Notes: a model not told the origin generated them from the letters alone. A stretch of 40,475 nucleotides of DNA from a virus (IMGVR_UViG_2660237933_000004), one strand, 5' to 3'. Shown: positions 4,678 to 33,487, numbered from the stretch's first letter. Made by a program: numbers and translations.

Positions 4678-5756
4678 CAGAACGGGTCCTCCTGTACTCT
4701 GGCTTTTTTCTTTTTCCGCGCGCCGGGGGCTTCGGGTTCAGGCAGATAAGCATCAGGCGGGCCGACACGGATTTCCGTCAGGGTGCCGTTCTGGTCCTGA
4801 GTAAACGTGACTTCCGAAACAAGCAGTTCGGTATTGTCGAAACCACAGACCGGATCAAAGACAATCACCCGCTGGTTGGGCTGCCACAGCGTACCGTTAC
4901 CCTGTCGCCAGCCCTGCACCACATAGGTGGTTTCATCCGTCCGCGCCGCCCGTTGTCGGGCTTCAAAGTCCGCACGGGCAATACAGCCTGCCCCCGTAGC
5001 CTGCCCTGTCTGCCTGATATACATCGGACGGTAACGGGCAATAAATGCGTCCTCTGTGCGGGCCCGCAGCGCGGTGGTGGTGGCCTCACCGAAATCATCG
5101 TCGTTTCCGGCACGCTGCCCCGCCACCTGGTAAACTGAAAACCGCTCCCGGATACTCTTCTCCGTATCACAGGAAAGGATGTTTTCCCCAAGTACCAGCG
5201 CGGTATGTGCCCGCGTTGAGCCAATACCACCAATCACCAGCCTGCCGTGCGGGTCGTCATAAGCCAGCGCCTGCTGCTGACCGAGTATTTTGTTGATCAC
5301 CTCGATCACCGTTTCACCGTGATCAGGCTGGACATCCGGAATAACACCCGACGGCGCATCGCTGTTCACCACCTCAATGCCGAAAGGCGCAGCAAGCGCC
5401 TGCGCAATCTGTACCAGCGATCGTCCGTTAAACTGTGTCGGTTCGGCTGCACAGTCAATCAGGTCAGCAGTCAGACTACGTCCGGCAATACCGGTGCTGA
5501 CCGAACGGGCATCGTAACGAACGGGGGTCGCCTCCACCCAGCCGGTGATCACCAGCTCATCACCAATCAGCACTTCCACTTTTGAACCATTTTTAATGCG
5601 CGGCTGAAGCGTGGTGATACCCTCATCTCCCGGCCACTGGCGGGTGATCTCCACGCTGAAATCCCGCGCCAGCCGTTCAATACCGGCACCGATGCGCACC
5701 GATGTCCAGCCATTCCACTCCCGGCCATTTACCCGTAGCGTGACGTTATCGTTCAT
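4677..5756 (-). CDS. Tail protein (Mu gpP / late control D-like)
   Basis: 359 aa; position downstream of the DNA circularization-like gene in a Mu-type tail module. Confidence 0.5.
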   Translation of the reverse strand: MNDNVTLRVNGREWNGWTSVRIGAGIERLARDFSVEITRQWPGDEGITTLQPRIKNGSKVEVLIGDELVITGWVEATPVRYDARSVSTGIAGRSLTADLIDCAAEPTQFNGRSLVQIAQALAAPFGIEVVNSDAPSGVIPDVQPDHGETVIEVINKILGQQQALAYDDPHGRLVIGGIGSTRAHTALVLGENILSCDTEKSIRERFSVYQVAGQRAGNDDDFGEATTTALRARTEDAFIARYRPMYIRQTGQATGAGCIARADFEARQRAARTDETTYVVQGWRQGNGTLWQPNQRVIVFDPVCGFDNTELLVSEVTFTQDQNGTLTEIRVGPPDAYLPEPEAPGARKKKKARVQEDPF

Positions 5757-7087
5757 TGCACTGGCACCTTCAGAGGGATCACCGGCACAAAGCCGGGATG
5801 CGTAATGGCATTACGCCGGATAATGTCCGCGTCACGCGCCGCGTTATCAAACCAGGTCGCCGCCAGCACCAGCGCGGGTAAGACCTCATCCGGCGTGCGC
5901 CGAATGATCCGTGCAGACTGTTCAAGGCGCGTGTTGATATCCGCATTCAGATCTGCTTTCACCCGGCGCAGTGCCAGAAACAGCGCATCACTGGTTGTAC
6001 GGGACAACTCCTTATCAATTGCCGTATTCAGTGTGTCGCGAATGTCAGTCAGCTCTTCCCACGTTGGCAGGTCAACCGTGTTTTTCACCGCCGGTGCATT
6101 GTTCAGTGCCGGATGCGTGACAGAAGGCCAGCCAGTGCTCTGCGCGGGTGTTGTTGCCTGCCCCACTGCGGAATTCTGCATCACCTCGGAAGTTGTTGGC
6201 GCAGGCAATCGGGTGACGGCATACGCCGCTTCGCTGATTGCGGTCGTACGAAGGGTGCTGGCAACCACGTTACGCTGCTGCGTCGCCGTGGCGGTGGTTT
6301 TACTGTCCGTTTTCCAGACGCCGCGCGGTTGCAGATCGCTGCCGAGGCTGACACCGGAAAGCGTTTTGATCATGGTGACCAGGTCGCTGGCGTTACCATA
6401 AAGGCGTTTCCCGGTACGCCACATTTTCTGCACCTGCTCAACGAAATTTTTGCCTGACGATGGCGGCGGCAGAAGTACCGAGATATCCCCCTGCAACAGC
6501 CTGGCGGCATCCGATACGGCAGAATCCACCACTTTCATCGCATCAGAAACATACCCCAGCATTATGCTGGCATTATCGATAACGTCGTTCTGCACGAAAT
6601 CCGCCACACCATCGATACTGAAACCGCTGAAGCTGTCACTGATGCAGTCATCCAGTGCAGAACAGGATGACATCAGCGTCTGCGCCGTCGCCGCACCTGA
6701 TGTGGGGTAAGAGAGTTCTCCTGCTTCGACAAACTTCAGGTCAAAGCGGACAATACGCCCTTCACTTTTCGATGTGCTGACCCGAACTTCCCCGTCAACA
6801 CAGACTTTCAGCTCACCATATGTCGGGTGGACAAGCGTGCCGGGACCGGGTTTATTCAGCGCTTCAATCAGGCGATCGCGCTGGTCAAAGCAGTCATCTC
6901 CCACCACATAAGCTGTGATGGACGGGCGGAAAGTGACTTTTCCCAGATCTTCGGTATAGGGCTTGTCGCGGTTCGGGTATTCATGTGTTTCCACACGGCG
7001 ACCGGTTCCCGCACTTTCTTCTTCAACCTTAAACGGCACACCTCGAAATGACGCATCCTGAAGCCTGTCTTTCCACGTCATATACAC
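5753..7087 (-). CDS. Tail protein (Mu gpN DNA circularization protein-like)
   Basis: 444 aa; N-terminal region looked Mu N-like from memory; downstream of tape measure. Confidence 0.5.
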   Translation of the reverse strand: MYMTWKDRLQDASFRGVPFKVEEESAGTGRRVETHEYPNRDKPYTEDLGKVTFRPSITAYVVGDDCFDQRDRLIEALNKPGPGTLVHPTYGELKVCVDGEVRVSTSKSEGRIVRFDLKFVEAGELSYPTSGAATAQTLMSSCSALDDCISDSFSGFSIDGVADFVQNDVIDNASIMLGYVSDAMKVVDSAVSDAARLLQGDISVLLPPPSSGKNFVEQVQKMWRTGKRLYGNASDLVTMIKTLSGVSLGSDLQPRGVWKTDSKTTATATQQRNVVASTLRTTAISEAAYAVTRLPAPTTSEVMQNSAVGQATTPAQSTGWPSVTHPALNNAPAVKNTVDLPTWEELTDIRDTLNTAIDKELSRTTSDALFLALRRVKADLNADINTRLEQSARIIRRTPDEVLPALVLAATWFDNAARDADIIRRNAITHPGFVPVIPLKVPVQ

Positions 7088-7090
7088 TCC

Positions 7091-7125
7091 GAAAATAAAA
7101 AAGCCACCTATTAGAAGGTGGCCTT
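7091..7125 (-). terminator. Intrinsic terminator after the moron gene
   Basis: Minus-strand hairpin (GCCACC / GGTGGC stem, 8-nt loop) followed by TTTTTTATTTT, 20 bp after the stop of the 7143-7673 gene. Confidence 0.5.
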
Positions 7126-7142
7126 GTAATGAATTTTATTAA

Positions 7143-7673
7143 TTAGCGAGTCAGAAACAACGAATCTTTATACTTTTGCTGTTGTTCATTTAAATACTTA
7201 GCTGTTTCATCGCTGGCAAATGGAAATATTACCGTATTTTTAGGCATGGTAATTTCTTTTTTGTCCAGCGTCAGAGTAAACATAGGAACATACTGAGCAG
7301 AGTAACGCACCGCAGAAACGAGCTCTAGTTTAGACTCTTCAATAACACTTAAATTATCCAGGCTAACTTTCTCTTCATCTTTTTTCTTTGACGCATTTAA
7401 AGTTTTTATTACTTTATTTAATTTCTCCTGAAAATCCTCCTTAAAGTTTTCAGGATTGCCGTCGACAACAAGAATCTGTTCACCCTGATTATCTGGAAAA
7501 ATAATCTTTGCACTTATCAATTTATTTTCTTTATAAACATCACCAAGTTTTATGGCTCCTCCAGATAACTGAATAATATGTTCATCTTTAAAGGAGATGT
7601 TGCCAGAGATTATGAGAGATGAAAAAATAGCCGCTGCTCCAAGAATTACACTTGCTGTGATATAGCCTTTCAT
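7143..7673 (-). CDS. Hypothetical membrane-anchored moron protein
   Basis: 176 aa; N-terminal hydrophobic helix (VILGAAAIFSSLIIS) then Lys/Glu-rich soluble domain; markedly AT-rich versus flanking tail genes; own promoter-like sequence and terminator. Confidence 0.6.
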   Translation of the reverse strand: MKGYITASVILGAAAIFSSLIISGNISFKDEHIIQLSGGAIKLGDVYKENKLISAKIIFPDNQGEQILVVDGNPENFKEDFQEKLNKVIKTLNASKKKDEEKVSLDNLSVIEESKLELVSAVRYSAQYVPMFTLTLDKKEITMPKNTVIFPFASDETAKYLNEQQQKYKDSLFLTR

Positions 7674-7764
7674 TTTTCGCCTATTAACATTTTTCTAAAT
7701 GTGCATTAATTCTATCACTCTATTTATGACTTACAACCAGCAATACATGTGAGGGGAATCCTGG

Positions 7765-9597
7765 CTACCAAAATCGGGTATAGCCAACATCGTGATTTAT
7801 ATCAATGCCACTGGAGCGTGTTTCCGTAACCCGCATACCTGGTGGCATATTTATAAATGATACCTTGATCTCACCATCAACTTTTGGCGCGGTAGCTTTA
7901 TTAATCATGAAGGGATTCGGGCCTGTGGCATCGGAGGCGTTGTTTGCCTGAGCCGGATCCACCGCCGGATAAGGAGTGTATCCCCGTGCCGGTATTCCCG
8001 TCCCATAAGCATCATAAGCACCCGCGCCCCACTGCGCAGAGTTAATGGCATCGACCGTGTCACCGGAACTGTCGGTAAACCACTCAATAATTGGCTTCAG
8101 CTTGTCCCACATATCCTGAAACCACTTAACAACCGGCCCCCAGTTATTGATCACCATCCCCAGCGGCGACCAGGCAAAAACTTTCTTAAGGAGTTCCCGG
8201 CCAGCCTCAAAATAAGGACCAATGGTTTCCCAGAGCTTCTTGAAATAAGGTCCGACAACATCCCAGTTAGTGATAATTAATCCCGCAGCCAGGGCTATCG
8301 CCGTCGCAATCATGCCAATCGGCGTCATCGACATGATCCTGCTGACAATGCTGATGGCACTGCCCACGCCCATCAATCCCAGTTTCAGAATCGCAAGACC
8401 GGCAGCAAGCCCGACGACGCCGCGAATAACCCGGGGATTTTCATCCGCAAACTTCGTGAATTTTTCCCCTAACTCCCCCAGCCATTGCGTGATATTTTTG
8501 GCGTCACCAGAAAATGCGCCGCCAATAGCCGCAAGGCCGTTAGTTGCGGTCCCCGTCATTGCCTCCCACAGGTTGGACAGCGTACCAAGCTGGGCCTGAA
8601 CACGTTTATTCAGGCTGGCCTGTTTATTCATCTTCTGCTGGATCTGATCGTAGCCATCCTTTCCTTTATCGATTAGTGCATTGACCACCTGAAGGGTTTC
8701 GGCATCATCACCAAATATTGCCTTAAGTACACCTGTTCGCTTAACGTCGGTCAGTTTTCGCAGCTTTGCCAGTTGCCTGAACATGTTATCAAGACCGCCA
8801 AAACTCCCTTTGCCGTCAGTAAAATCGAGCTTTACTCCGAGTTTCTGGCGGGCCATGATTTTATTGACGTCCCTGATTTTCTTAACGCTTAATCCGGACT
8901 GGATAACTTTTCGCAGGGCATTACCTGCCGACTCCCCGTTCATCCCCATCTGATCCATCATGACGCTGATGGGGGCAAGGCTCTGTGCAGCCTGAAGACC
9001 GTCCTTGTTCACCATCTTCAGAACAGAACTGGTTTTAGTGAAAAAGGACAACATGTTGGTATCGTCAACGCCCAGATAAAACGCCTTCTGGATAGTGTCG
9101 AACAGCCCCATCATGTCTTCTGACGCCGTTCCGGTAGCATCCTGCATCTTTGCGGCAAACTCGGCAGCCGCTTCCGGTGTTTTTTTCAGTTGTACCGCAA
9201 GATAAGCTGTCGCTTTACCCACACCGCCCAGAATGTTTTCTGCCGGGATCCCCTGACGCACCAGCATCTGCATCATGTTCTGGAAATCAGCCGTTGTACC
9301 GGGTAGCTGGTTACCCAGACCAATAGCCAGTTTATTGATGTCCTGAAAGCGCTTTCCGACCTCACCGTTCGCATCCATCATGGCAACTTTCAGCCCGGTG
9401 GCGGCATTTTCCTGATCGGCATAAGATTTCAGGGAAAGCGTCAGACCCGCAGCCAGTCCGCCACCAAGCGCCAGCCCACCCTGTGACGCTTCTTCAGCCT
9501 GGCGTTTAAATCCCCGGATTTTCTTTTGCATTTTCGACAGCGCGGGAGAAAGCCTGTCGACACCGGTGATCAACGCCTTAAGCTCAAATTCAGCCAT
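7765..9597 (-). CDS. Tail tape measure protein
   Basis: 610 aa with Gly/Ala-rich and hydrophobic segments; follows the frameshifted chaperone pair. Confidence 0.8.
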   Translation of the reverse strand: MAEFELKALITGVDRLSPALSKMQKKIRGFKRQAEEASQGGLALGGGLAAGLTLSLKSYADQENAATGLKVAMMDANGEVGKRFQDINKLAIGLGNQLPGTTADFQNMMQMLVRQGIPAENILGGVGKATAYLAVQLKKTPEAAAEFAAKMQDATGTASEDMMGLFDTIQKAFYLGVDDTNMLSFFTKTSSVLKMVNKDGLQAAQSLAPISVMMDQMGMNGESAGNALRKVIQSGLSVKKIRDVNKIMARQKLGVKLDFTDGKGSFGGLDNMFRQLAKLRKLTDVKRTGVLKAIFGDDAETLQVVNALIDKGKDGYDQIQQKMNKQASLNKRVQAQLGTLSNLWEAMTGTATNGLAAIGGAFSGDAKNITQWLGELGEKFTKFADENPRVIRGVVGLAAGLAILKLGLMGVGSAISIVSRIMSMTPIGMIATAIALAAGLIITNWDVVGPYFKKLWETIGPYFEAGRELLKKVFAWSPLGMVINNWGPVVKWFQDMWDKLKPIIEWFTDSSGDTVDAINSAQWGAGAYDAYGTGIPARGYTPYPAVDPAQANNASDATGPNPFMINKATAPKVDGEIKVSFINMPPGMRVTETRSSGIDINHDVGYTRFW

Positions 9598-20697: not shown

Positions 20698-20877
20698 TCC
20701 CCGCTTTATCCAAATTGCATTGCCAGAATGCCGACAACAGACTGACATTCAAATCCTGACTACCTCCAATAGTCTGACCGTACACCTATATAGTTTTAAA
20801 TTTCATCAATCCATTTAACTATCGTTTAATTGTTGTCACATAGGATTCTGCCGTTTTTAACAATGCAGGATAATAAG

Positions 20878-21171
20878 ATGAAAAAAATGTTGTTTTCTGC
20901 CGCTCTGGCAATGCTTATTACAGGATGTGCTCAACAGACGTTTACTGTTGGAAACAAACCGACAGCAGTAACACCAAAGGAAACCATCACCCATCATTTC
21001 TTCGTTTCGGGAATTGGACAGGAGAAAACTGTTGATGCAGCCAAAATTTGTGGCGGCGCAGAAAATGTTGTTAAAACAGAAACCCAGCAAACATTCGTAA
21101 ATGGATTGCTCGGTTTTATTACTTTAGGCATTTATACTCCGCTGGAAGCGCGTGTGTATTGCTCACAATAA
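20878..21171 (+). CDS. bor: Bor lipoprotein (serum resistance, lysogenic conversion)
   Basis: Near-identical to lambda Bor from memory, including lipobox LITGC; opposite strand to the lysis genes as in lambda. Confidence 0.85.
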   Translation: MKKMLFSAALAMLITGCAQQTFTVGNKPTAVTPKETITHHFFVSGIGQEKTVDAAKICGGAENVVKTETQQTFVNGLLGFITLGIYTPLEARVYCSQ

Positions 21172-22657: not shown

Positions 22658-23461
22658 ATGACAGAAAAAGATAACATTGGTAAGTTAATTTGGCATATTG
22701 CTTGCGATGAATCTGGCATTGATGGACAACGTTTCTACGGCTTTGGCAGTCTGTGGATGAAGTACCAACGCCGTGGGGATTTCTGTCAACTAATCAGAGA
22801 ACTACGCGGAAAACATGGTTTTTTTGAAGAAATAAAATGGCAAAAAGCCCATTCAAAAAGATACTCTGAATTTTATCTTGAGCTGATCGACTTATTCTTT
22901 AGAGTTCCTTGGCTAGCTTTTCATTGTATCGTGGTTGAAAAATCAATAGTAAATAAGGCATTTCATAATGGAGATTATGACCTGGCAAGGAGAAAGCACT
23001 TCACAAATCTCATTACCACAAAAATTAGCTCTGTAATTTCTGCACACCCTGAAAGAGACAGTTACTTCAGGATTGAAGTTGATCCTATCGCATCTCGTTA
23101 TAAAAAGGCTGATGAAGAACTAAATGTTATTGCCAATAACATATTGAATAGAAAATTTGGTCGTAAAGGGATAATCAGCAGTGTAGTGACAAAAGACTCT
23201 AAAGCATCTGAAAACATTCAGCTAGCCGATTTTTTCTTAGGTGCGGTTATGTGCGCATATCAAGGAAAAGCTTCATCTGAAGCCAAAATAAGAGTATCAA
23301 ACTATGTTGCTTCATATTTAGGCTGGGATCACTTGCAATATGATACATGGCACACTGAGAGAAAATTTAATATCTGGTATTTTTATGATAAAACTCGAGG
23401 GCCACGAGATATAGAAACTCAAAATGTTAGCTTGAAGTATCCACTTCCCAAAAAGAAATAG
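22658..23461 (+). CDS. DUF3800-like protein (function unknown), opposite-strand moron between Q and holin
   Basis: 267 aa; N-terminal DESG and C-terminal QLAD motifs as I recall for DUF3800; AT-rich; AT-rich upstream region. Confidence 0.6.
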   Translation: MTEKDNIGKLIWHIACDESGIDGQRFYGFGSLWMKYQRRGDFCQLIRELRGKHGFFEEIKWQKAHSKRYSEFYLELIDLFFRVPWLAFHCIVVEKSIVNKAFHNGDYDLARRKHFTNLITTKISSVISAHPERDSYFRIEVDPIASRYKKADEELNVIANNILNRKFGRKGIISSVVTKDSKASENIQLADFFLGAVMCAYQGKASSEAKIRVSNYVASYLGWDHLQYDTWHTERKFNIWYFYDKTRGPRDIETQNVSLKYPLPKKK

Positions 23462-23682: not shown

Positions 23683-24372
23683 TTAATCCAGTTTTGCAAT
23701 ACTTTGCTGTGAAAATGTGGTCTTTTGTTTTGAACGTGTTCTCGTTACAAGCAATAAAGCTTCGCTATCAAGCTGTAGAAAAATGTGCTTCATTGCAACC
23801 CAGCGTTCAGTGAATGTCTCAGACCAGTTTTTTGATGTCACTCCCACCAGTGATGCCAGTTCCCGGTATTCATAAGTCTCACGCCCAGCCAGCTCGCTCT
23901 TCACATCCTGTGCTGCCAGCCAGATCAACTTCTTTAAGCGTTCCAGTGTCTTACTGGCAATTTTTCTTGTACCTAACAGAGCCTTAAACTCGTTCCATGC
24001 CCACTGCGTTATGGCAACCTGATGCTCCCAGCGAACACTTTCGCTGTAACTCCACAGCAACCACGCTTTCTGATGTTCATCGAGAGACAGAACCGCGCGG
24101 CGCCATGACGAGGTTGAGAACTCAACCTGGCTGACCAGTGCAATGGATGAACCTTTTGCGTACGACTGCTTACCGGAAATCGGCGGATTATCCAGCGTAA
24201 TCATCCTGCCAGTTACCTCATCCAGAATGCGCGGCTTCTTTCGTTTGTATGTACCAGTATCAAATTGTGCATGCTCCAGACAGGCTTCAAGCTGGCCTTT
24301 CGTTGCTCCGCTCAAATCAGCGGTAGCCACAATGAGTTGCTCGCGGACATACTGTAAATATTGGGTATTCAT
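23683..24372 (-). CDS. Putative late-gene antiterminator (Q-like), by position
   Basis: 229 aa ORF immediately after rusA/ylcG and before the lysis cassette; not lambda Q-like in sequence. Confidence 0.4.
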   Translation of the reverse strand: MNTQYLQYVREQLIVATADLSGATKGQLEACLEHAQFDTGTYKRKKPRILDEVTGRMITLDNPPISGKQSYAKGSSIALVSQVEFSTSSWRRAVLSLDEHQKAWLLWSYSESVRWEHQVAITQWAWNEFKALLGTRKIASKTLERLKKLIWLAAQDVKSELAGRETYEYRELASLVGVTSKNWSETFTERWVAMKHIFLQLDSEALLLVTRTRSKQKTTFSQQSIAKLD

Positions 24373-31310: not shown

Positions 31311-31350
31311 AACAACCTCCGTGGTTAATTTGAATCAAGATTAAAACTGT

Positions 31351-31371
31351 GGTTGTTTTTAGTCAACAACC
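31351..31371. promoter_or_regulatory. Candidate OR operator palindrome
   Basis: GGTTGTT-TTTAGTC-AACAACC perfect 7-bp inverted repeat between cro and cI; the same GTTGTT/AACAAC hexamers recur at the pL region. Confidence 0.35.
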
Positions 31372-31414
31372 ATTTTCGTTTGATGGAATAAAACCTTGGT
31401 TGTACATTTGGACT

Positions 31415-32104
31415 ATGAAAACAACACTCTCAGAAAGACTTAAAGAAGCCAGATTAGCGCGAGGCCTTACACAAAAGGCGCTTGGGGATTTGGTCGGGGT
31501 TAGCCAAGCTGCTATTCAGAAAATCGAAACAGGGAAAGCTAACCAAACAACTAAAATCGTGGAGATCGCGAACGCTTTGGGTGTGCGCGCAGAATGGTTA
31601 TCTTCTGGCGTTGGAAATATGTCAGACAGTACAGTGCAACCAATACCATCAACTGTCAGCCATTCCAAATACTTTAAGATTGACGTTCTTGATATAGAAG
31701 TGAGTGCCGGGCCGGGAGTCATCAACCGTGAGTTTGTAGAAGTTCTACGCTCGGTTGAGTACTCGTTTGACGATGCTCGTCACATGTTCGATGGTAGGAA
31801 GGCAGAAAATATCCGCATCATTAACGTACGCGGTGACAGCATGTCAGGAACGATCGAACCAGGTGATCTGCTGTTCGTTGATATCACGGTTAAATCTTTC
31901 GACGGTGATGGTATCTATGCGTTTCTGTATGACGACACCGCCCATGTAAAGCGCCTGCAAATGATGAAGGATAAGCTACTGGTTATCTCTGATAACAAGA
32001 GCTACTCGCCGTGGGACCCAATTGAGAAAGACGAGATGAACCGGGTATTCATCTTCGGTAAGGTTATTGGGAGCATGCCGCAGACATACAGGAAGCATGG
32101 GTAA
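31415..32104 (+). CDS. cI: CI-type prophage repressor (HTH plus S24 LexA-like autopeptidase domain)
   Basis: 229 aa from MKTTLSERLKEARLARGLTQKALGD; C-terminal GDSMSGTIEPGDLLFVD Ser nucleophile motif and a downstream Lys. Confidence 0.85.
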   Translation: MKTTLSERLKEARLARGLTQKALGDLVGVSQAAIQKIETGKANQTTKIVEIANALGVRAEWLSSGVGNMSDSTVQPIPSTVSHSKYFKIDVLDIEVSAGPGVINREFVEVLRSVEYSFDDARHMFDGRKAENIRIINVRGDSMSGTIEPGDLLFVDITVKSFDGDGIYAFLYDDTAHVKRLQMMKDKLLVISDNKSYSPWDPIEKDEMNRVFIFGKVIGSMPQTYRKHG

Positions 32105-32183: not shown

Positions 32184-33029
32184 ATGAAGCTTAACTTTTA
32201 TGCCGTATACATTCAAAATACTAGCTCTCTGAAAAAACAACCTATAGATTTATTGTCATTTCTGACAGAGCAGGTAATAAACGCTAAGAATCATGCTCAG
32301 CAGATTGAAGACTACTATGTTTTTGCACATCATATAATTAATGATAGTTTTATCCTGACAAAAACATTTGATTCAGAACTAGTTAAAAAAATCAATAGAA
32401 AAACACTTTCGGTTGATGAAATAAGAAATGCGCTTAGTTCAGATGAGTCATTAGGATTCCCATCATTTTTATTAATAAGAAAAAATATTATCGGATATGC
32501 AAATACATTATTCGGCCCAAAAACTCGTGATCTTGCAGCTTACCTAAAAGGAAAGGGAGCAATACCTGATGGATACTCACTATTCATAGAACCTTTGATG
32601 AGAGATATAACAAAGGATGATGCTTTAAGCATGCAGTTTATAGGAAGAACAACGGTAAGGGTTGAAAATGGGTCAAAACTTCTCAGCCCCCTACTTAGAG
32701 TGCTTGGTGCACAAGCAGTTGACGAAGAGCTCTTAGAAGGACTGGAAATAACCGTGAAGCCTAAACGTTTACGAAATATAAAATCTGTTGCCAAAGGGAT
32801 TATTAGCAATGTGGATGAACAACATGAGAGCATTCACCTGAAGGGTAAAGAACAAGCTGCAGATATTCTTACAGAATATTATCTTTCTGACAAAGGCCAC
32901 ATTGGAGCAAATATCTATAAATCATCGAATGAAGACATAGCATCCGAAATGTCAACTTGCTATCTCAGGATGAAATTGATTATAATGGAAAGTTATAATA
33001 GAACATTTGGAGATGAGTTACCACTATAA
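32184..33029 (+). CDS. rexA: RexA-like abortive-infection protein
   Basis: 281 aa directly downstream of cI; conserved segments ESLGFPSF, IEPLMR..TKDD, FIGRTTVRVE, ILTEYYLSDKGH match lambda RexA from memory; AT-rich. Confidence 0.7.
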   Translation: MKLNFYAVYIQNTSSLKKQPIDLLSFLTEQVINAKNHAQQIEDYYVFAHHIINDSFILTKTFDSELVKKINRKTLSVDEIRNALSSDESLGFPSFLLIRKNIIGYANTLFGPKTRDLAAYLKGKGAIPDGYSLFIEPLMRDITKDDALSMQFIGRTTVRVENGSKLLSPLLRVLGAQAVDEELLEGLEITVKPKRLRNIKSVAKGIISNVDEQHESIHLKGKEQAADILTEYYLSDKGHIGANIYKSSNEDIASEMSTCYLRMKLIIMESYNRTFGDELPL

Positions 33030-33031
33030 TA

Positions 33032-33487
33032 TTGGGGGGCTATATGAAGTCACGGCACAGGATAGCGCCAGCAATAATACTTTTTCTTTTGCCATTCCCA
33101 ATTATTATAAGTGCGTATTATCTAATCCGCCACATGTTTCCGGGTATGGCTTTTAGCGAGCACAGAGATGCGCTGGGTGGCGCTATTGCCGCTTATTCTG
33201 GTACTACAATTGCGATACTTATAGCCGCTTTAACATTTCTGATGGGGCTGGGAGGCAGGAATATTCGCAAATTGAAAACATATGGCTATATGACATCAAT
33301 CATAATCATGTATGGATTAACTTTTTGCGAGCTAGGAGTACTTTTCTTTAATGGCTTGTTTTTACTTGCAACAAGTAAAAATCCTATACTAATGCTACCA
33401 TCAATCGCTATTGGTTTATCAGGTACGTCACTAATCCATATTGGCATGCTCCTGATGCAATTACTTAATCTGTCAAAACATAAGTAA
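33032..33487 (+). CDS. rexB: RexB-like membrane protein
   Basis: 151 aa, four hydrophobic helices; FSEHRDALG...TIAILIAALTFL...YGYMTS closely matches lambda RexB from memory. Confidence 0.7.
   Translation: MGGYMKSRHRIAPAIILFLLPFPIIISAYYLIRHMFPGMAFSEHRDALGGAIAAYSGTTIAILIAALTFLMGLGGRNIRKLKTYGYMTSIIIMYGLTFCELGVLFFNGLFLLATSKNPILMLPSIAIGLSGTSLIHIGMLLMQLLNLSKHK

What the first reader, a model, noticed from the sequence alone, without database searches (positions are those of the whole stretch)
7091..7764. AT-rich membrane-anchored moron with its own promoter and terminator inside the tail operon
A 176-aa ORF sits between the tape measure and the next tail gene. It has one N-terminal hydrophobic helix and a charged soluble domain, and is much more AT-rich than its neighbours. 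A promoter-like sequence lies upstream on the minus strand (TTGTAA, TG-extended TAGAAT) and a hairpin plus T-run terminator lies downstream at 7091-7125. The protein is unlike any tail component, so this looks like an independently transcribed cargo unit, possibly superinfection exclusion or another lysogenic-conversion function.
Basis: partly seen in the sequence, partly recalled or inferred. Interest (0 to 1): 0.6.

Follow-up and report, generated by a model that had tools for sequence, protein, structure and literature searches.

The report
Swappable membrane-protein moron in tail operon
A small AT-rich gene for a membrane-anchored periplasmic protein of unknown function sits as an optional, exchangeable cassette between two tail genes of an E. 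coli prophage; it is a typical phage "moron", most plausibly one that helps the lysogen keep out other phages, but that function is untested.

Summary
A 176-aa ORF (7143..7673, minus strand) lies between the tape-measure gene and the Mu gpN-like gene. Its GC is 0.34, against 0.52-0.56 in the flanks. A TG-extended sigma-70-like promoter lies upstream and a strong hairpin plus T-run downstream.

Comparison shows that the TMP-gpN junction of SfV-like prophages is an exchangeable slot. It is empty (57 bp) in SfV, SfI and SfII. Elsewhere it holds one of four unrelated AT-rich cassettes. One of them matches a PHROG family annotated "superinfection exclusion Sie-like".

The protein belongs to PHROG 5485, of unknown function. 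It has no Pfam, NCBIfam or PADLOC match. A confident AlphaFold model (pLDDT 91.5) has no solved structural relative. It is predicted to be anchored N-in, with a periplasmic alpha/beta domain, and it is under purifying selection (dN/dS about 0.08).

Relatives down to 28-30% identity occupy the same slot in other Enterobacterales. Others sit among the hub and spike genes of unrelated E217-like myovirus prophages, again AT-rich, and in most loci checked followed by a terminator.

The gene is therefore accessory cargo and not a virion part. Independent transcription and function remain unproven. Envelope-level phage exclusion is my best guess (about 0.4). A hairpin terminator also sits in the empty slot, so a terminator at this junction is not unique to this cassette.

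The parts
7709..7736 (-). Sigma-70-like promoter candidate: -35 TTGTAA (7736-7731), 16-nt spacer, TG (7717-7716), -10 TAGAAT (7714-7709). The predicted transcription start is near 7702.
   Evidence: 9/12 match, TG-extended; chance 13% for any match and 0.8% with TG in shuffles of the 91-nt spacer; both hexamers are invariant in 76 E. coli copies. Function was not tested.
7678..7682 (-). Weak Shine-Dalgarno-like AGGCG, 5-9 nt upstream of the ATG at 7673.
   Evidence: Read directly from the sequence.
7143..7673 (-). 176-aa ORF (WP_000679479.1), a member of PHROG 5485 (unknown function). GC 0.34.
   Evidence: Purifying selection.
7605..7670 (-). Codons for residues 2-23, the single N-terminal transmembrane helix. 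It is predicted to act as a signal-anchor, with the N-terminus in the cytoplasm and the C-terminal domain in the periplasm.
   Evidence: Hydropathy. AlphaFold helix 2-23. Charge bias indicates N-in in 52 of 56 family members. Two family members have 50-118 aa of charged sequence before the helix.
7161..7577 (-). Codons for residues 33-171, the predicted periplasmic alpha/beta domain: a beta-hairpin followed by beta-beta-alpha-beta-beta-alpha. It carries the family motif G39..L43-G44..Y47.E49, plus N93, Y124 and L134.
7092..7125 (-). Intrinsic terminator: stem AAGGCCACCT / AGGTGGCTT(T) (7125-7116 / 7109-7100), 6-nt loop, T-run 7102-7092. It abuts the gpN ribosome-binding site GGAG (7090-7087).
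   Evidence: -15.6 kcal/mol, z -4.47. Equivalent hairpins with different stems are present in the empty slot and the other co-oriented cassettes.
7765..9597 (-). Upstream backbone gene: tail tape-measure protein. Its last few codons are the left recombination boundary of the cassette.
   Evidence: PF10145 and tape-measure PHROG families. The TMP C-termini differ between slot variants.
5753..7081 (-). Downstream backbone gene: Mu gpN-like DNA-circularisation / baseplate hub protein. The start is most likely the ATG at 7081, 5 nt after GGAG.
   Evidence: PF07157 and phrog_184. RefSeq uses the same start.
23683..24372 (-). Lambda-type Q antiterminator of the same prophage. It is the likely reason late transcription can read through the cassette's terminator into gpN and the baseplate genes.
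   Evidence: PF06323, E 1.4e-94. Read-through itself is inferred from the established lambda Q mechanism and was not tested.

Best explanation
This is a horizontally acquired, exchangeable moron cassette of about 677 bp. It consists of an AT-rich gene plus its own intrinsic terminator, possibly with its own sigma-70 promoter. It sits in a recombination slot between the tape-measure gene and the gpN-like gene of an SfV-like (HK97-type head, Mu-type tail) lambdoid prophage.

The gene encodes a type II inner-membrane protein. One N-terminal transmembrane helix keeps the N-terminus in the cytoplasm and displays a compact alpha/beta domain of about 150 aa in the periplasm.

Most likely mechanism (inferred):
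1. In the lysogen the cassette is transcribed on its own.
2. Transcription stops at the hairpin directly before the gpN ribosome-binding site, so tail genes stay silent.
3. The periplasmic domain interferes with genome delivery by incoming phages at the periplasm or inner-membrane step. That is superinfection exclusion, comparable in logic to HK97 gp15.
4. During lytic growth, Q-antiterminated late transcription reads through the hairpin, so the cassette does not disturb tail gene expression.

Shown here: the anatomy, the cargo status, the slot variability, the predicted membrane topology and purifying selection.
Inferred: promoter activity, expression in the lysogen and the exclusion function.
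For: Cargo and not structural:
- The slot is a 57-bp spacer in SfV, SfI and SfII.
- Among 75 IMG/VR loci with gpN at least 98% identical, 19 are empty, 25 carry this gene, 22 carry a signal-peptide protein, 8 carry a TM+OB-fold protein on the opposite strand and 1 carries a bPH_1 protein. Every cassette has GC 0.32-0.37.
- 175 of the 1076 E. coli genomes that match the query region carry this cassette.

Mobility: relatives at 28-30% identity sit among the hub and spike genes of unrelated E217/PhiTE-like myovirus prophages, at more than one position. All three are AT-rich, and two of the three (L193, L197) are followed by a clear hairpin plus T-run terminator. Distant relatives lie in small integrative elements with no tail genes.

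Real, constrained protein:
- dN/dS is 0.08 for L007 against L015.
- E. coli alleles show 14 synonymous and 10 nonsynonymous variants, and 1 of 76 copies is disrupted.
- 78 cluster representatives have the same length and architecture.

Envelope location: one transmembrane helix, N-in charge bias in 52 of 56 members, and members with long charged N-terminal tails.

Hints of exclusion:
- The allelic TM+OB-fold cassette matches phrog_8545 'superinfection exclusion Sie-like' at E 1.5e-49.
- Three of the four cassettes encode envelope-targeted proteins.
- The protein diverges about twice as fast as its structural neighbours: 53-55% identity against 68-88%.
- The only significant structural hit is a phage lipoprotein.
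- Precedent: the HK97 gp15 moron, next to the tape-measure gene, is an inner-membrane exclusion protein (PMC3594210).

The prophage has a Q antiterminator and carries other lysogen-expressed cargo, Bor and RexAB.
Against: - The promoter is only a consensus match, with a 13% chance rate without the TG criterion.
- My scan found no comparable promoter-like site for the L007 and L012 orthologous cassettes. The L015 spacer did have a 9/12 site.
- L192 has a 34-nt spacer and in L193 the start overlaps the upstream stop, so some family members may be expressed only as part of the late tail operon.
- In all tail-embedded cases the gene is co-oriented with the tail operon.
- It has stayed in the same slot down to 30% identity. 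This would also fit a function tied to the phage's own tail.
- ETEC H10407 carries the cassette and has a second match to this tail region (places_in_record = 2). If that is a second SfV-like prophage, it is weakly at odds with exclusion of self-like phages.
- No isolated phage in INPHARED carries the gene, so there is no experimental system on record.
Confidence: 0.4

Rival explanations
1. Lysogenic-conversion or host-fitness factor unrelated to phage defence. The prophage-expressed periplasmic protein would modify an envelope property of the host, such as stress tolerance, serum or bile resistance, colonisation or a transport process, in the way lambda Bor and Lom do.
Confidence: 0.25
2. Late-expressed accessory protein that serves the phage's own lytic cycle. 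It would be transcribed with the tail operon and act from the inner membrane or periplasm. Possible roles include protecting the infected cell from secondary injection late in infection, or modulating the envelope before lysis. It would not be a virion component.
For: The gene is always co-oriented with the tail operon. In L193 the start codon overlaps the stop of the upstream gene, and L192 has only a 34-nt spacer. It has been retained in the same TMP-gpN slot across E. coli, Leclercia, Lelliottia, Edwardsiella and a more distant module, down to 30% identity. Q-dependent read-through would express it late (inference).
Against: It is dispensable: SfV, SfI and SfII are viable with an empty slot. 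Unrelated cassettes replace it, one of them on the opposite strand. Relatives occur in integrative elements that have no tail genes. The persistent AT-richness and the terminator carried with the cassette in most loci are hallmarks of morons and not of operon-integral genes.
Confidence: 0.2
3. Functionless hitch-hiking ORF: an AT-rich insertion that survives because it is neutral.
For: No known domain matches and no experimental data exist.
Against: Purifying selection is strong (dN/dS 0.08). Length, architecture and motifs are conserved across 78 cluster representatives. The AlphaFold model is confident and compact. Only 1 of 76 E. coli copies is disrupted.
Confidence: 0.05

Closest known systems
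HK97 gene 15 moron (gp15, YebO-like inner-membrane superinfection-exclusion protein; Cumby et al. 2012, summarised in PMC3594210)
   Same: A small gene inserted in a tail operon next to the tape-measure gene. It differs in base composition from its neighbours, has promoter and terminator signals, and is absent from otherwise collinear relatives. Its product is anchored in the inner membrane (for gp15; for this gene).
   Different: There is no sequence relationship. This protein matches only PHROG 5485, with no Pfam family. It is larger and has a folded periplasmic domain of about 150 aa. It lies downstream of the tape-measure gene in a contractile-tail module, whereas gp15 lies upstream in a siphovirus. 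Exclusion activity is shown for gp15 and untested here.
Other phage-encoded entry blockers at the envelope (P22 SieA, T4 Imm/Sp, T5 Llp, Cor of phi80/N15)
   Same: Small phage-encoded envelope proteins that protect the carrier cell and are often linked to tail or receptor-binding genes. This rests on my own knowledge plus PMC3594210 and PMC10883804.
   Different: No homology was detected in PHROG, Pfam or PADLOC. The topology also differs: a single N-terminal anchor with a periplasmic alpha/beta domain, against the polytopic SieA and Imm or the lipoproteins Llp and Cor.
Membrane-anchored OB-fold anti-phage proteins (lactococcal AbiP, S. aureus prophage PdpSau) and PHROG 8545 'Sie-like'
   Same: These resemble the alternative cassette that occupies the same slot in other prophages: an N-terminal transmembrane helix plus a tRNA_anti-like OB fold (PF12869), matching phrog_8545 at E 1.5e-49 (PMC10127798). 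This suggests the slot is used for phage-resistance cargo.
   Different: That cassette encodes a different protein on the opposite strand. The 176-aa protein has no OB fold.
Lambda Bor and Lom morons
   Same: Lysogen-expressed envelope proteins carried as add-ons within or next to late operons. A Bor homologue lies in this same window at 20830-21171.
   Different: Bor and Lom are outer-membrane proteins that act on host-animal interactions. There is no homology with this protein.
Lipoprotein of Pseudomonas phage ventosus (UniProt A0A2H4P829, predicted structure in BFVD)
   Same: This is the only significant fold match: Foldseek E 4.4e-6, TM-score 0.55 normalised to the query and 0.65 to the target. 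It is also a small phage-encoded protein tethered to the envelope.
   Different: Sequence identity is 13%. It has a lipid anchor and not a transmembrane helix. Its function is unknown too, so the match gives no mechanism.

Membership tests
Moron (Juhala/Hendrix definition) | Extra DNA that is present in some genomes and absent from otherwise collinear relatives | tested here: met
   The slot is empty (57 bp) in SfV, SfI, SfII and 19 of 75 close IMG/VR loci. This cassette is present in 25 of the 75.
Moron (Juhala/Hendrix definition) | Base composition different from the surrounding genes | tested here: met
   GC 0.34 and GC3 0.30, against 0.52-0.56 and 0.57-0.60 in the flanks. The same contrast holds in orthologous and E217-like loci.
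Moron (Juhala/Hendrix definition) | Own terminator | tested here: met
   Hairpin plus T-run, -15.6 kcal/mol, z -4.47. Caveat: the empty slot and the other co-oriented cassettes have an equivalent hairpin, so the junction carries a terminator in those states as well.
Moron (Juhala/Hendrix definition) | Own promoter | tested here: inconclusive
   A TG-extended 9/12 consensus match lies in the 91-nt spacer. Chance is 13% without the TG criterion and 0.8% with it. My scan found no comparable site for the L007 and L012 orthologues, although L015 had one. Distant relatives have little or no room for a promoter.
Moron (Juhala/Hendrix definition) | Expression from the repressed prophage | not testable with these tools
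   This needs RNA-seq or transcription-start mapping, or a reporter fusion, in a lysogen.
PHROG 5485 (unknown function) | Full-length match to the family profile | tested here: met
   E 3.8e-108 over residues 1-176 of a 176-position profile. Distant relatives P0033, P0054 and P0073 match the same PHROG.
Known superinfection-exclusion or defence protein families | Sequence or profile homology to a characterised Sie or defence protein | tested here: not met
   No PADLOC hit at E up to 10. No Sie-annotated PHROG, Pfam or NCBIfam hit. No PDB relative.
Known superinfection-exclusion or defence protein families | Envelope (inner-membrane or periplasmic) location | tested here: met
   Prediction only: one transmembrane helix, N-in charge bias in 52 of 56 members, and N-terminally extended members.
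Known superinfection-exclusion or defence protein families | Blocks infection or genome entry by incoming phage | not testable with these tools
   This needs plating-efficiency, adsorption and DNA-entry assays.
Virion / tail structural component of SfV- or Mu-like tails | Conserved in all phages that share the tail module, or homologous to a known tail protein | tested here: not met
   Absent from SfV, SfI and SfII. Replaced by unrelated genes in other prophages. No tail PHROG or Pfam match. Also found in elements with no tail genes.

The most novel reading that the evidence does not exclude
PHROG 5485 may be the founding example of an uncharacterised family of inner-membrane-anchored periplasmic proteins that block genome delivery by contractile-tailed phages. 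On this reading the family spreads as an AT-rich gene-plus-terminator cassette, landing specifically in the tape-measure/hub/spike region of temperate myovirus tail clusters. The TMP-gpN junction of SfV-like prophages would then be a previously undescribed allelic hotspot for exclusion or defence cargo, with at least four interchangeable cassettes. The predicted fold has no solved relative.
Probability: 0.3. Interest if true: 0.65.

Novelty: new member of a known kind. Interest (0 to 1): 0.42.

Why it matters
If the protein is an exclusion factor, it would add a new fold and family to the few known envelope-level blocks to phage genome entry. The mechanism of almost all of these remains unknown. 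It would also be one directed at, or at least carried by, contractile-tailed temperate phages that are common in E. coli, Shigella and related pathogens.

Separately from the function, the TMP-gpN junction is a well-defined slot with four alternative cassettes and an empty state in hundreds of genomes. That makes it a convenient natural experiment. Isogenic prophages that differ only in the cassette could be compared directly, and the other cassettes (bPH_1, TM+OB-fold, signal-peptide protein) become candidates too.

About 3% of complete E. coli genomes (175 of 5426) carry this cassette, so it may contribute to phage-resistance patterns that matter for phage therapy.

If none of this holds, it is one more ordinary moron of unknown function.

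Tried and rejected
- Domain and family searches of the 176-aa protein gave nothing beyond PHROG 5485 and 34391: Pfam, PADLOC at E up to 10, NCBIfam. Pfam scans of all 56 family members gave only scattered chance hits. The weak phrog_15137 'endonuclease' hit (E 0.014) was disregarded because nothing else supports it.
- A PDB sequence-profile search gave 0 hits at E up to 10.
- The afdb50 fold library was unavailable.
Viral-contig scans with P0037, P0063 and P0031 found nothing.
- The genome-contig scan found only one Edwardsiella locus.
- A degenerate-motif scan of metagenome contigs gave two true same-slot loci and two false positives.
- tblastn against 50,697 isolated phage genomes found no copy.
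- A 35-kb 'plasmid' record that carries the cassette turned out to be a rearranged prophage fragment with IS26. It is not evidence for an active phage.
- I first assumed the window was identical to NZ_CP098211 throughout. Only the tail module is identical. The early region matches a different, DLP12-like lambdoid prophage at thrW/proA.
- A literature search for the protein accession returned nothing. The SfII and SfIV genome papers, the only two I searched, contain no discussion of a moron at this junction.
- I considered a cleaved signal peptide in place of a membrane anchor. I rejected it because the hydrophobic stretch is about 20 residues long and two relatives carry long cytoplasmic-type N-terminal extensions before it.

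Full report
**1. The observation.** The 176-aa ORF is real. It runs from 7143 to 7673 on the minus strand, starts with ATG, and is the only long ORF in the gap. RefSeq annotates the identical protein as hypothetical protein WP_000679479.1 in many E. coli genomes, including ETEC H10407.
- Upstream lies the tail tape-measure gene (7765..9597, PF10145).
- Downstream lies the Mu gpN-like 'DNA circularisation' / baseplate hub gene (5753..7081, PF07157, phrog_184).
- The 677-bp interval has GC 0.34 and the ORF has GC3 0.30. The neighbours have GC 0.52-0.56 and GC3 0.57-0.60.
- The protein has one hydrophobic segment at its N-terminus and a mixed-charge remainder with pI about 5.6.

**2. Promoter and terminator.**
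- Its statistical weight is moderate. Shuffles of the 91-nt spacer give a 9/12 match in 13% of cases and a TG-extended one in 0.8%.
- Over the surrounding 5.5 kb, promoter-like hits are no more frequent than in shuffles.
- Both hexamers are invariant in 76 E. coli copies, but overall variation is so low that this says little.
- The terminator is convincing: stem 7125-7116 / 7109-7100 and T-run 7102-7092, at -15.6 kcal/mol, z = -4.47, with 0 of 200 shuffles folding as well.
- The terminator ends one base before the gpN ribosome-binding site (GGAG 7090-7087, ATG 7081).

**3. The junction is an exchangeable slot.**
- In the isolated phages SfV, SfI and SfII the two flanks lie next to each other.
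- The SfII spacer is 57 bp. It consists of an AT-rich stretch and a hairpin plus T-run, which its authors annotated as a putative rho-independent terminator.
- Of 5426 complete E. coli genomes, 1076 match the query region and 175 carry this cassette.
- I measured the distance from the TMP stop to the gpN start in 75 IMG/VR loci whose gpN is at least 98% identical. This gave five states:

| State of the slot | Loci (n = 75) |
|---|---|
| Empty (57 bp) | 19 |
| This gene | 25 |
| 163/170-aa protein with a cleavable signal peptide | 22 |
| 148-aa protein with an N-terminal transmembrane helix and a tRNA_anti-like OB fold (PF12869), on the opposite strand | 8 |
| 125-aa bacterial PH-domain protein (PF08000) | 1 |

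- All four cassettes are AT-rich (GC 0.32-0.37).
- The signal-peptide cassette occurs in an isolated phage, SKA5.
- The TM+OB-fold cassette matches phrog_8545, annotated 'superinfection exclusion Sie-like', at E 1.5e-49. It has the architecture of the membrane-anchored OB-fold anti-phage proteins AbiP and PdpSau (PMC10127798).

**4. The terminator belongs to the slot as well as to the cassette.** Every variant whose gene is co-oriented with the tail operon, and the empty slot too, has a G+C-rich hairpin and T-run directly before the gpN ribosome-binding site.
- The stem sequences differ: GGCCACCT here, GTCCCAC or GCCCAC in the empty and bPH variants, CCCGCC in Leclercia, and a long stem in the 163-aa cassette.
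- Only the opposite-strand cassette lacks this hairpin. It has one between the TMP stop and its own 3' end instead.
- Late transcription must therefore always pass a terminator at this point. The prophage in the window encodes a lambda-type Q antiterminator (23683..24372, PF06323), which would allow read-through. That step is inferred from the known lambda Q mechanism.

**5. The protein family.** The protein is a full-length member of PHROG 5485, of unknown function. It has no Pfam, NCBIfam or PADLOC match.
- Close database relatives are E. coli copies at 94-99% identity and 173-174-aa proteins at 52-59% identity, the named ones from Leclercia and Lelliottia.
- A profile search of 1.84 billion cluster representatives found 78 relatives. 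Nearly all are 165-195 aa and have the same N-terminal hydrophobic helix.
- In a 56-sequence alignment G44 and Y124 are invariant, and G39, L43, E49, N93 and L134 are nearly so.
- Named hosts are all Gammaproteobacteria: Escherichia, Leclercia, Lelliottia, Edwardsiella, Citrobacter, Mangrovibacter, Serratia, Alkanindiges and a marine Pseudomonas.
- With the deep alignment AlphaFold gives a confident model (pLDDT 91.5, pTM 0.76). It has a transmembrane helix at residues 2-23, a short linker, a beta-hairpin and a beta-beta-alpha-beta-beta-alpha domain.
- The only significant hit among predicted viral structures is an uncharacterised 'lipoprotein' of Pseudomonas phage ventosus (E 4.4e-6).
- The charge distribution around the helix indicates N-in / C-out in 52 of 56 members.
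- Two members carry 50-118 residues of charged sequence before the helix. The helix is therefore a membrane anchor and not a cleaved signal peptide, and the folded domain should be periplasmic.

**6. Selection and history.** The one pair of orthologues whose synonymous sites are not saturated gives dN/dS = 0.08.
- E. coli alleles show 14 synonymous and 10 nonsynonymous variants. One of 76 copies is disrupted. The protein is therefore functional.
- Orthologues occupy exactly the same TMP-gpN slot in Leclercia, Lelliottia and Edwardsiella prophages and in metagenomic contigs.
- A relative with only 30% identity occupies the same slot in a more distant Mu-type tail module.
- Within these loci the cassette protein is 53-55% identical to the window's (41% in Edwardsiella). 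The sheath, tube, gpN and gpP proteins are 68-88% identical. The gene has thus been resident for a long time but evolves about twice as fast as the structural genes.
- Its divergence does not track the tape-measure protein. That protein is 35% identical in one locus and 75-77% in the other two, while the cassette protein is about the same in all three.

**7. The cassette also moves.** Relatives at 28-30% identity lie inside the baseplate gene clusters of unrelated E217/PhiTE-like temperate myoviruses.
- They sit either before or after the central spike gene. One lies next to further cargo (KilA-N/P63C, DUF551).
- There too the gene is much more AT-rich than its neighbours: 0.29-0.38 against 0.50-0.58.
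- L193 and L197 have a strong terminator directly downstream. In L195 the predicted downstream fold has no clear T-run.
- More distant relatives (about 23% identity) lie in small integrative elements of marine Gammaproteobacteria. Their neighbours are a resolvase, an Mrr-type nuclease, a DUF5906 primase-like gene and an integrase. These elements have no tail genes, and the gene shows no compositional contrast there.

**8. Interpretation.** The evidence firmly supports an accessory moron cassette and excludes an obligatory virion component. What the protein does is not known.
- I commit to envelope-level exclusion of incoming phages as the most likely function, at about 0.4. The reasons are:
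  - the periplasm-facing membrane anchor;
  - the moron anatomy;
  - the recurrent placement beside genes for the tail parts that cross the envelope;
  - the faster evolution compared with structural neighbours;
  - the allelic cassette annotated Sie-like;
  - the precedent of the HK97 gp15 moron, which lies next to the tape-measure gene and encodes an inner-membrane exclusion protein (PMC3594210).
- The points against are real:
  - there is no homology to any known exclusion or defence protein;
  - the promoter is unproven;
  - some relatives have no room for a promoter of their own;
  - the deep retention in one slot and the constant co-orientation would also fit a late-expressed function for the phage itself.
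- A host-fitness role of the Bor/Lom kind cannot be excluded either.

**9. Novelty and interest.** In kind this is a classical moron, so a specialist would not be surprised by its existence. Several things do not appear in the papers I could search:
- the definition of the TMP-gpN junction as a five-state exchangeable slot;
- the terminator present in every state of the slot (before the gpN ribosome-binding site in the empty and co-oriented variants, after the TMP stop in the opposite-strand one);
- the breadth and conserved architecture of PHROG 5485;
- its independent insertion into two unrelated contractile-tail clusters;
- a confidently predicted fold with no solved relative.

Together these make the gene a reasonable candidate for experimental testing as a new exclusion family. 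I rate the interest as moderate (0.42) and the novelty as a new member of a known kind.

Noticed in passing
window 7092-7125; L005 1592-1630; L002 about 1590-1625; L004 about 1590-1650; L012 about 6545-6570; L007 about 6545-6570: A hairpin plus T-run sits directly before the gpN ribosome-binding site in the empty slot and in all co-oriented cassettes. The stem sequences differ but the structure is kept. The late tail operon therefore always has to read through an intrinsic terminator at this junction. The 57-bp empty spacer resembles the 3' end of the bPH cassette, which suggests a deletion remnant or an ancestral terminator.
   Followed up: partly
L002 1646-2023(-); L003 1693-2139(+); L004 1673-2164(-); L006 1673-2185(-): Three other AT-rich cassettes occupy the same TMP-gpN slot in other E. 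coli prophages: a bacterial PH-domain protein (PF08000), a TM+OB-fold protein (PF12869, phrog_8545 'Sie-like') on the opposite strand, and a 163/170-aa signal-peptide protein (phrog_8976) that is also present in the isolated phage SKA5. None has a PADLOC match.
   Followed up: partly
window 32184-33029(+) and 33032-33487(+), downstream of the cI-like repressor at 31349-32104(+): RexA (PF15969) and RexB (PF15968) homologues follow the repressor gene, as in lambda. This prophage therefore already carries a classical lysogen-expressed abortive-infection pair.
   Followed up: no
window 20830-21171(+) and 22658-23461(+): Two more opposite-strand add-ons flank the lysis cassette. One is a Bor/Iss lipoprotein homologue (PF06291). 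The other is a DUF3800 protein between the Q antiterminator (23683-24372) and the holin region.
   Followed up: no
[not shown]
   Followed up: partly
L195 7001-9097; L193 7001-7513; L197 7001-7531: In E217/PhiTE-like temperate myovirus clusters, the PHROG 5485 relative sits at varying positions around the central spike gene. In L195 it lies next to further cargo (an 81-aa ORF, DUF551 and KilA-N/P63C). This points to a second cargo hotspot in a different tail type. A small secreted 102-112-aa protein precedes it in L195 and L197.
   Followed up: partly
L007 4147-5931 compared with window 7765-9597: The tape-measure protein of one Leclercia prophage is only 35% identical to the window's, while all neighbouring tail proteins are 68-86% identical. 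The tape-measure gene itself has been exchanged by recombination within an otherwise collinear module.
   Followed up: no
L098/L099 2173-13541; L102 5935-14462; L187: Distant PHROG 5485 relatives in marine Gammaproteobacteria lie in integrative elements of about 11 kb. One element is inserted in an FKBP gene. These elements carry a large serine recombinase or tyrosine integrase, a small resolvase, an Mrr-type nuclease and a DUF5906 primase-like gene. The family gene is always preceded by a small membrane or secreted protein.
   Followed up: no
NC_017633.1 (ETEC H10407), hit H15: ETEC H10407 carries the cassette (ETEC_RS01640) and has a second match to this tail region elsewhere in the chromosome (places_in_record = 2). 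I did not examine the second locus or its slot state. The strain would be a convenient place to test whether the cassette excludes SfV-like phages.
   Followed up: no
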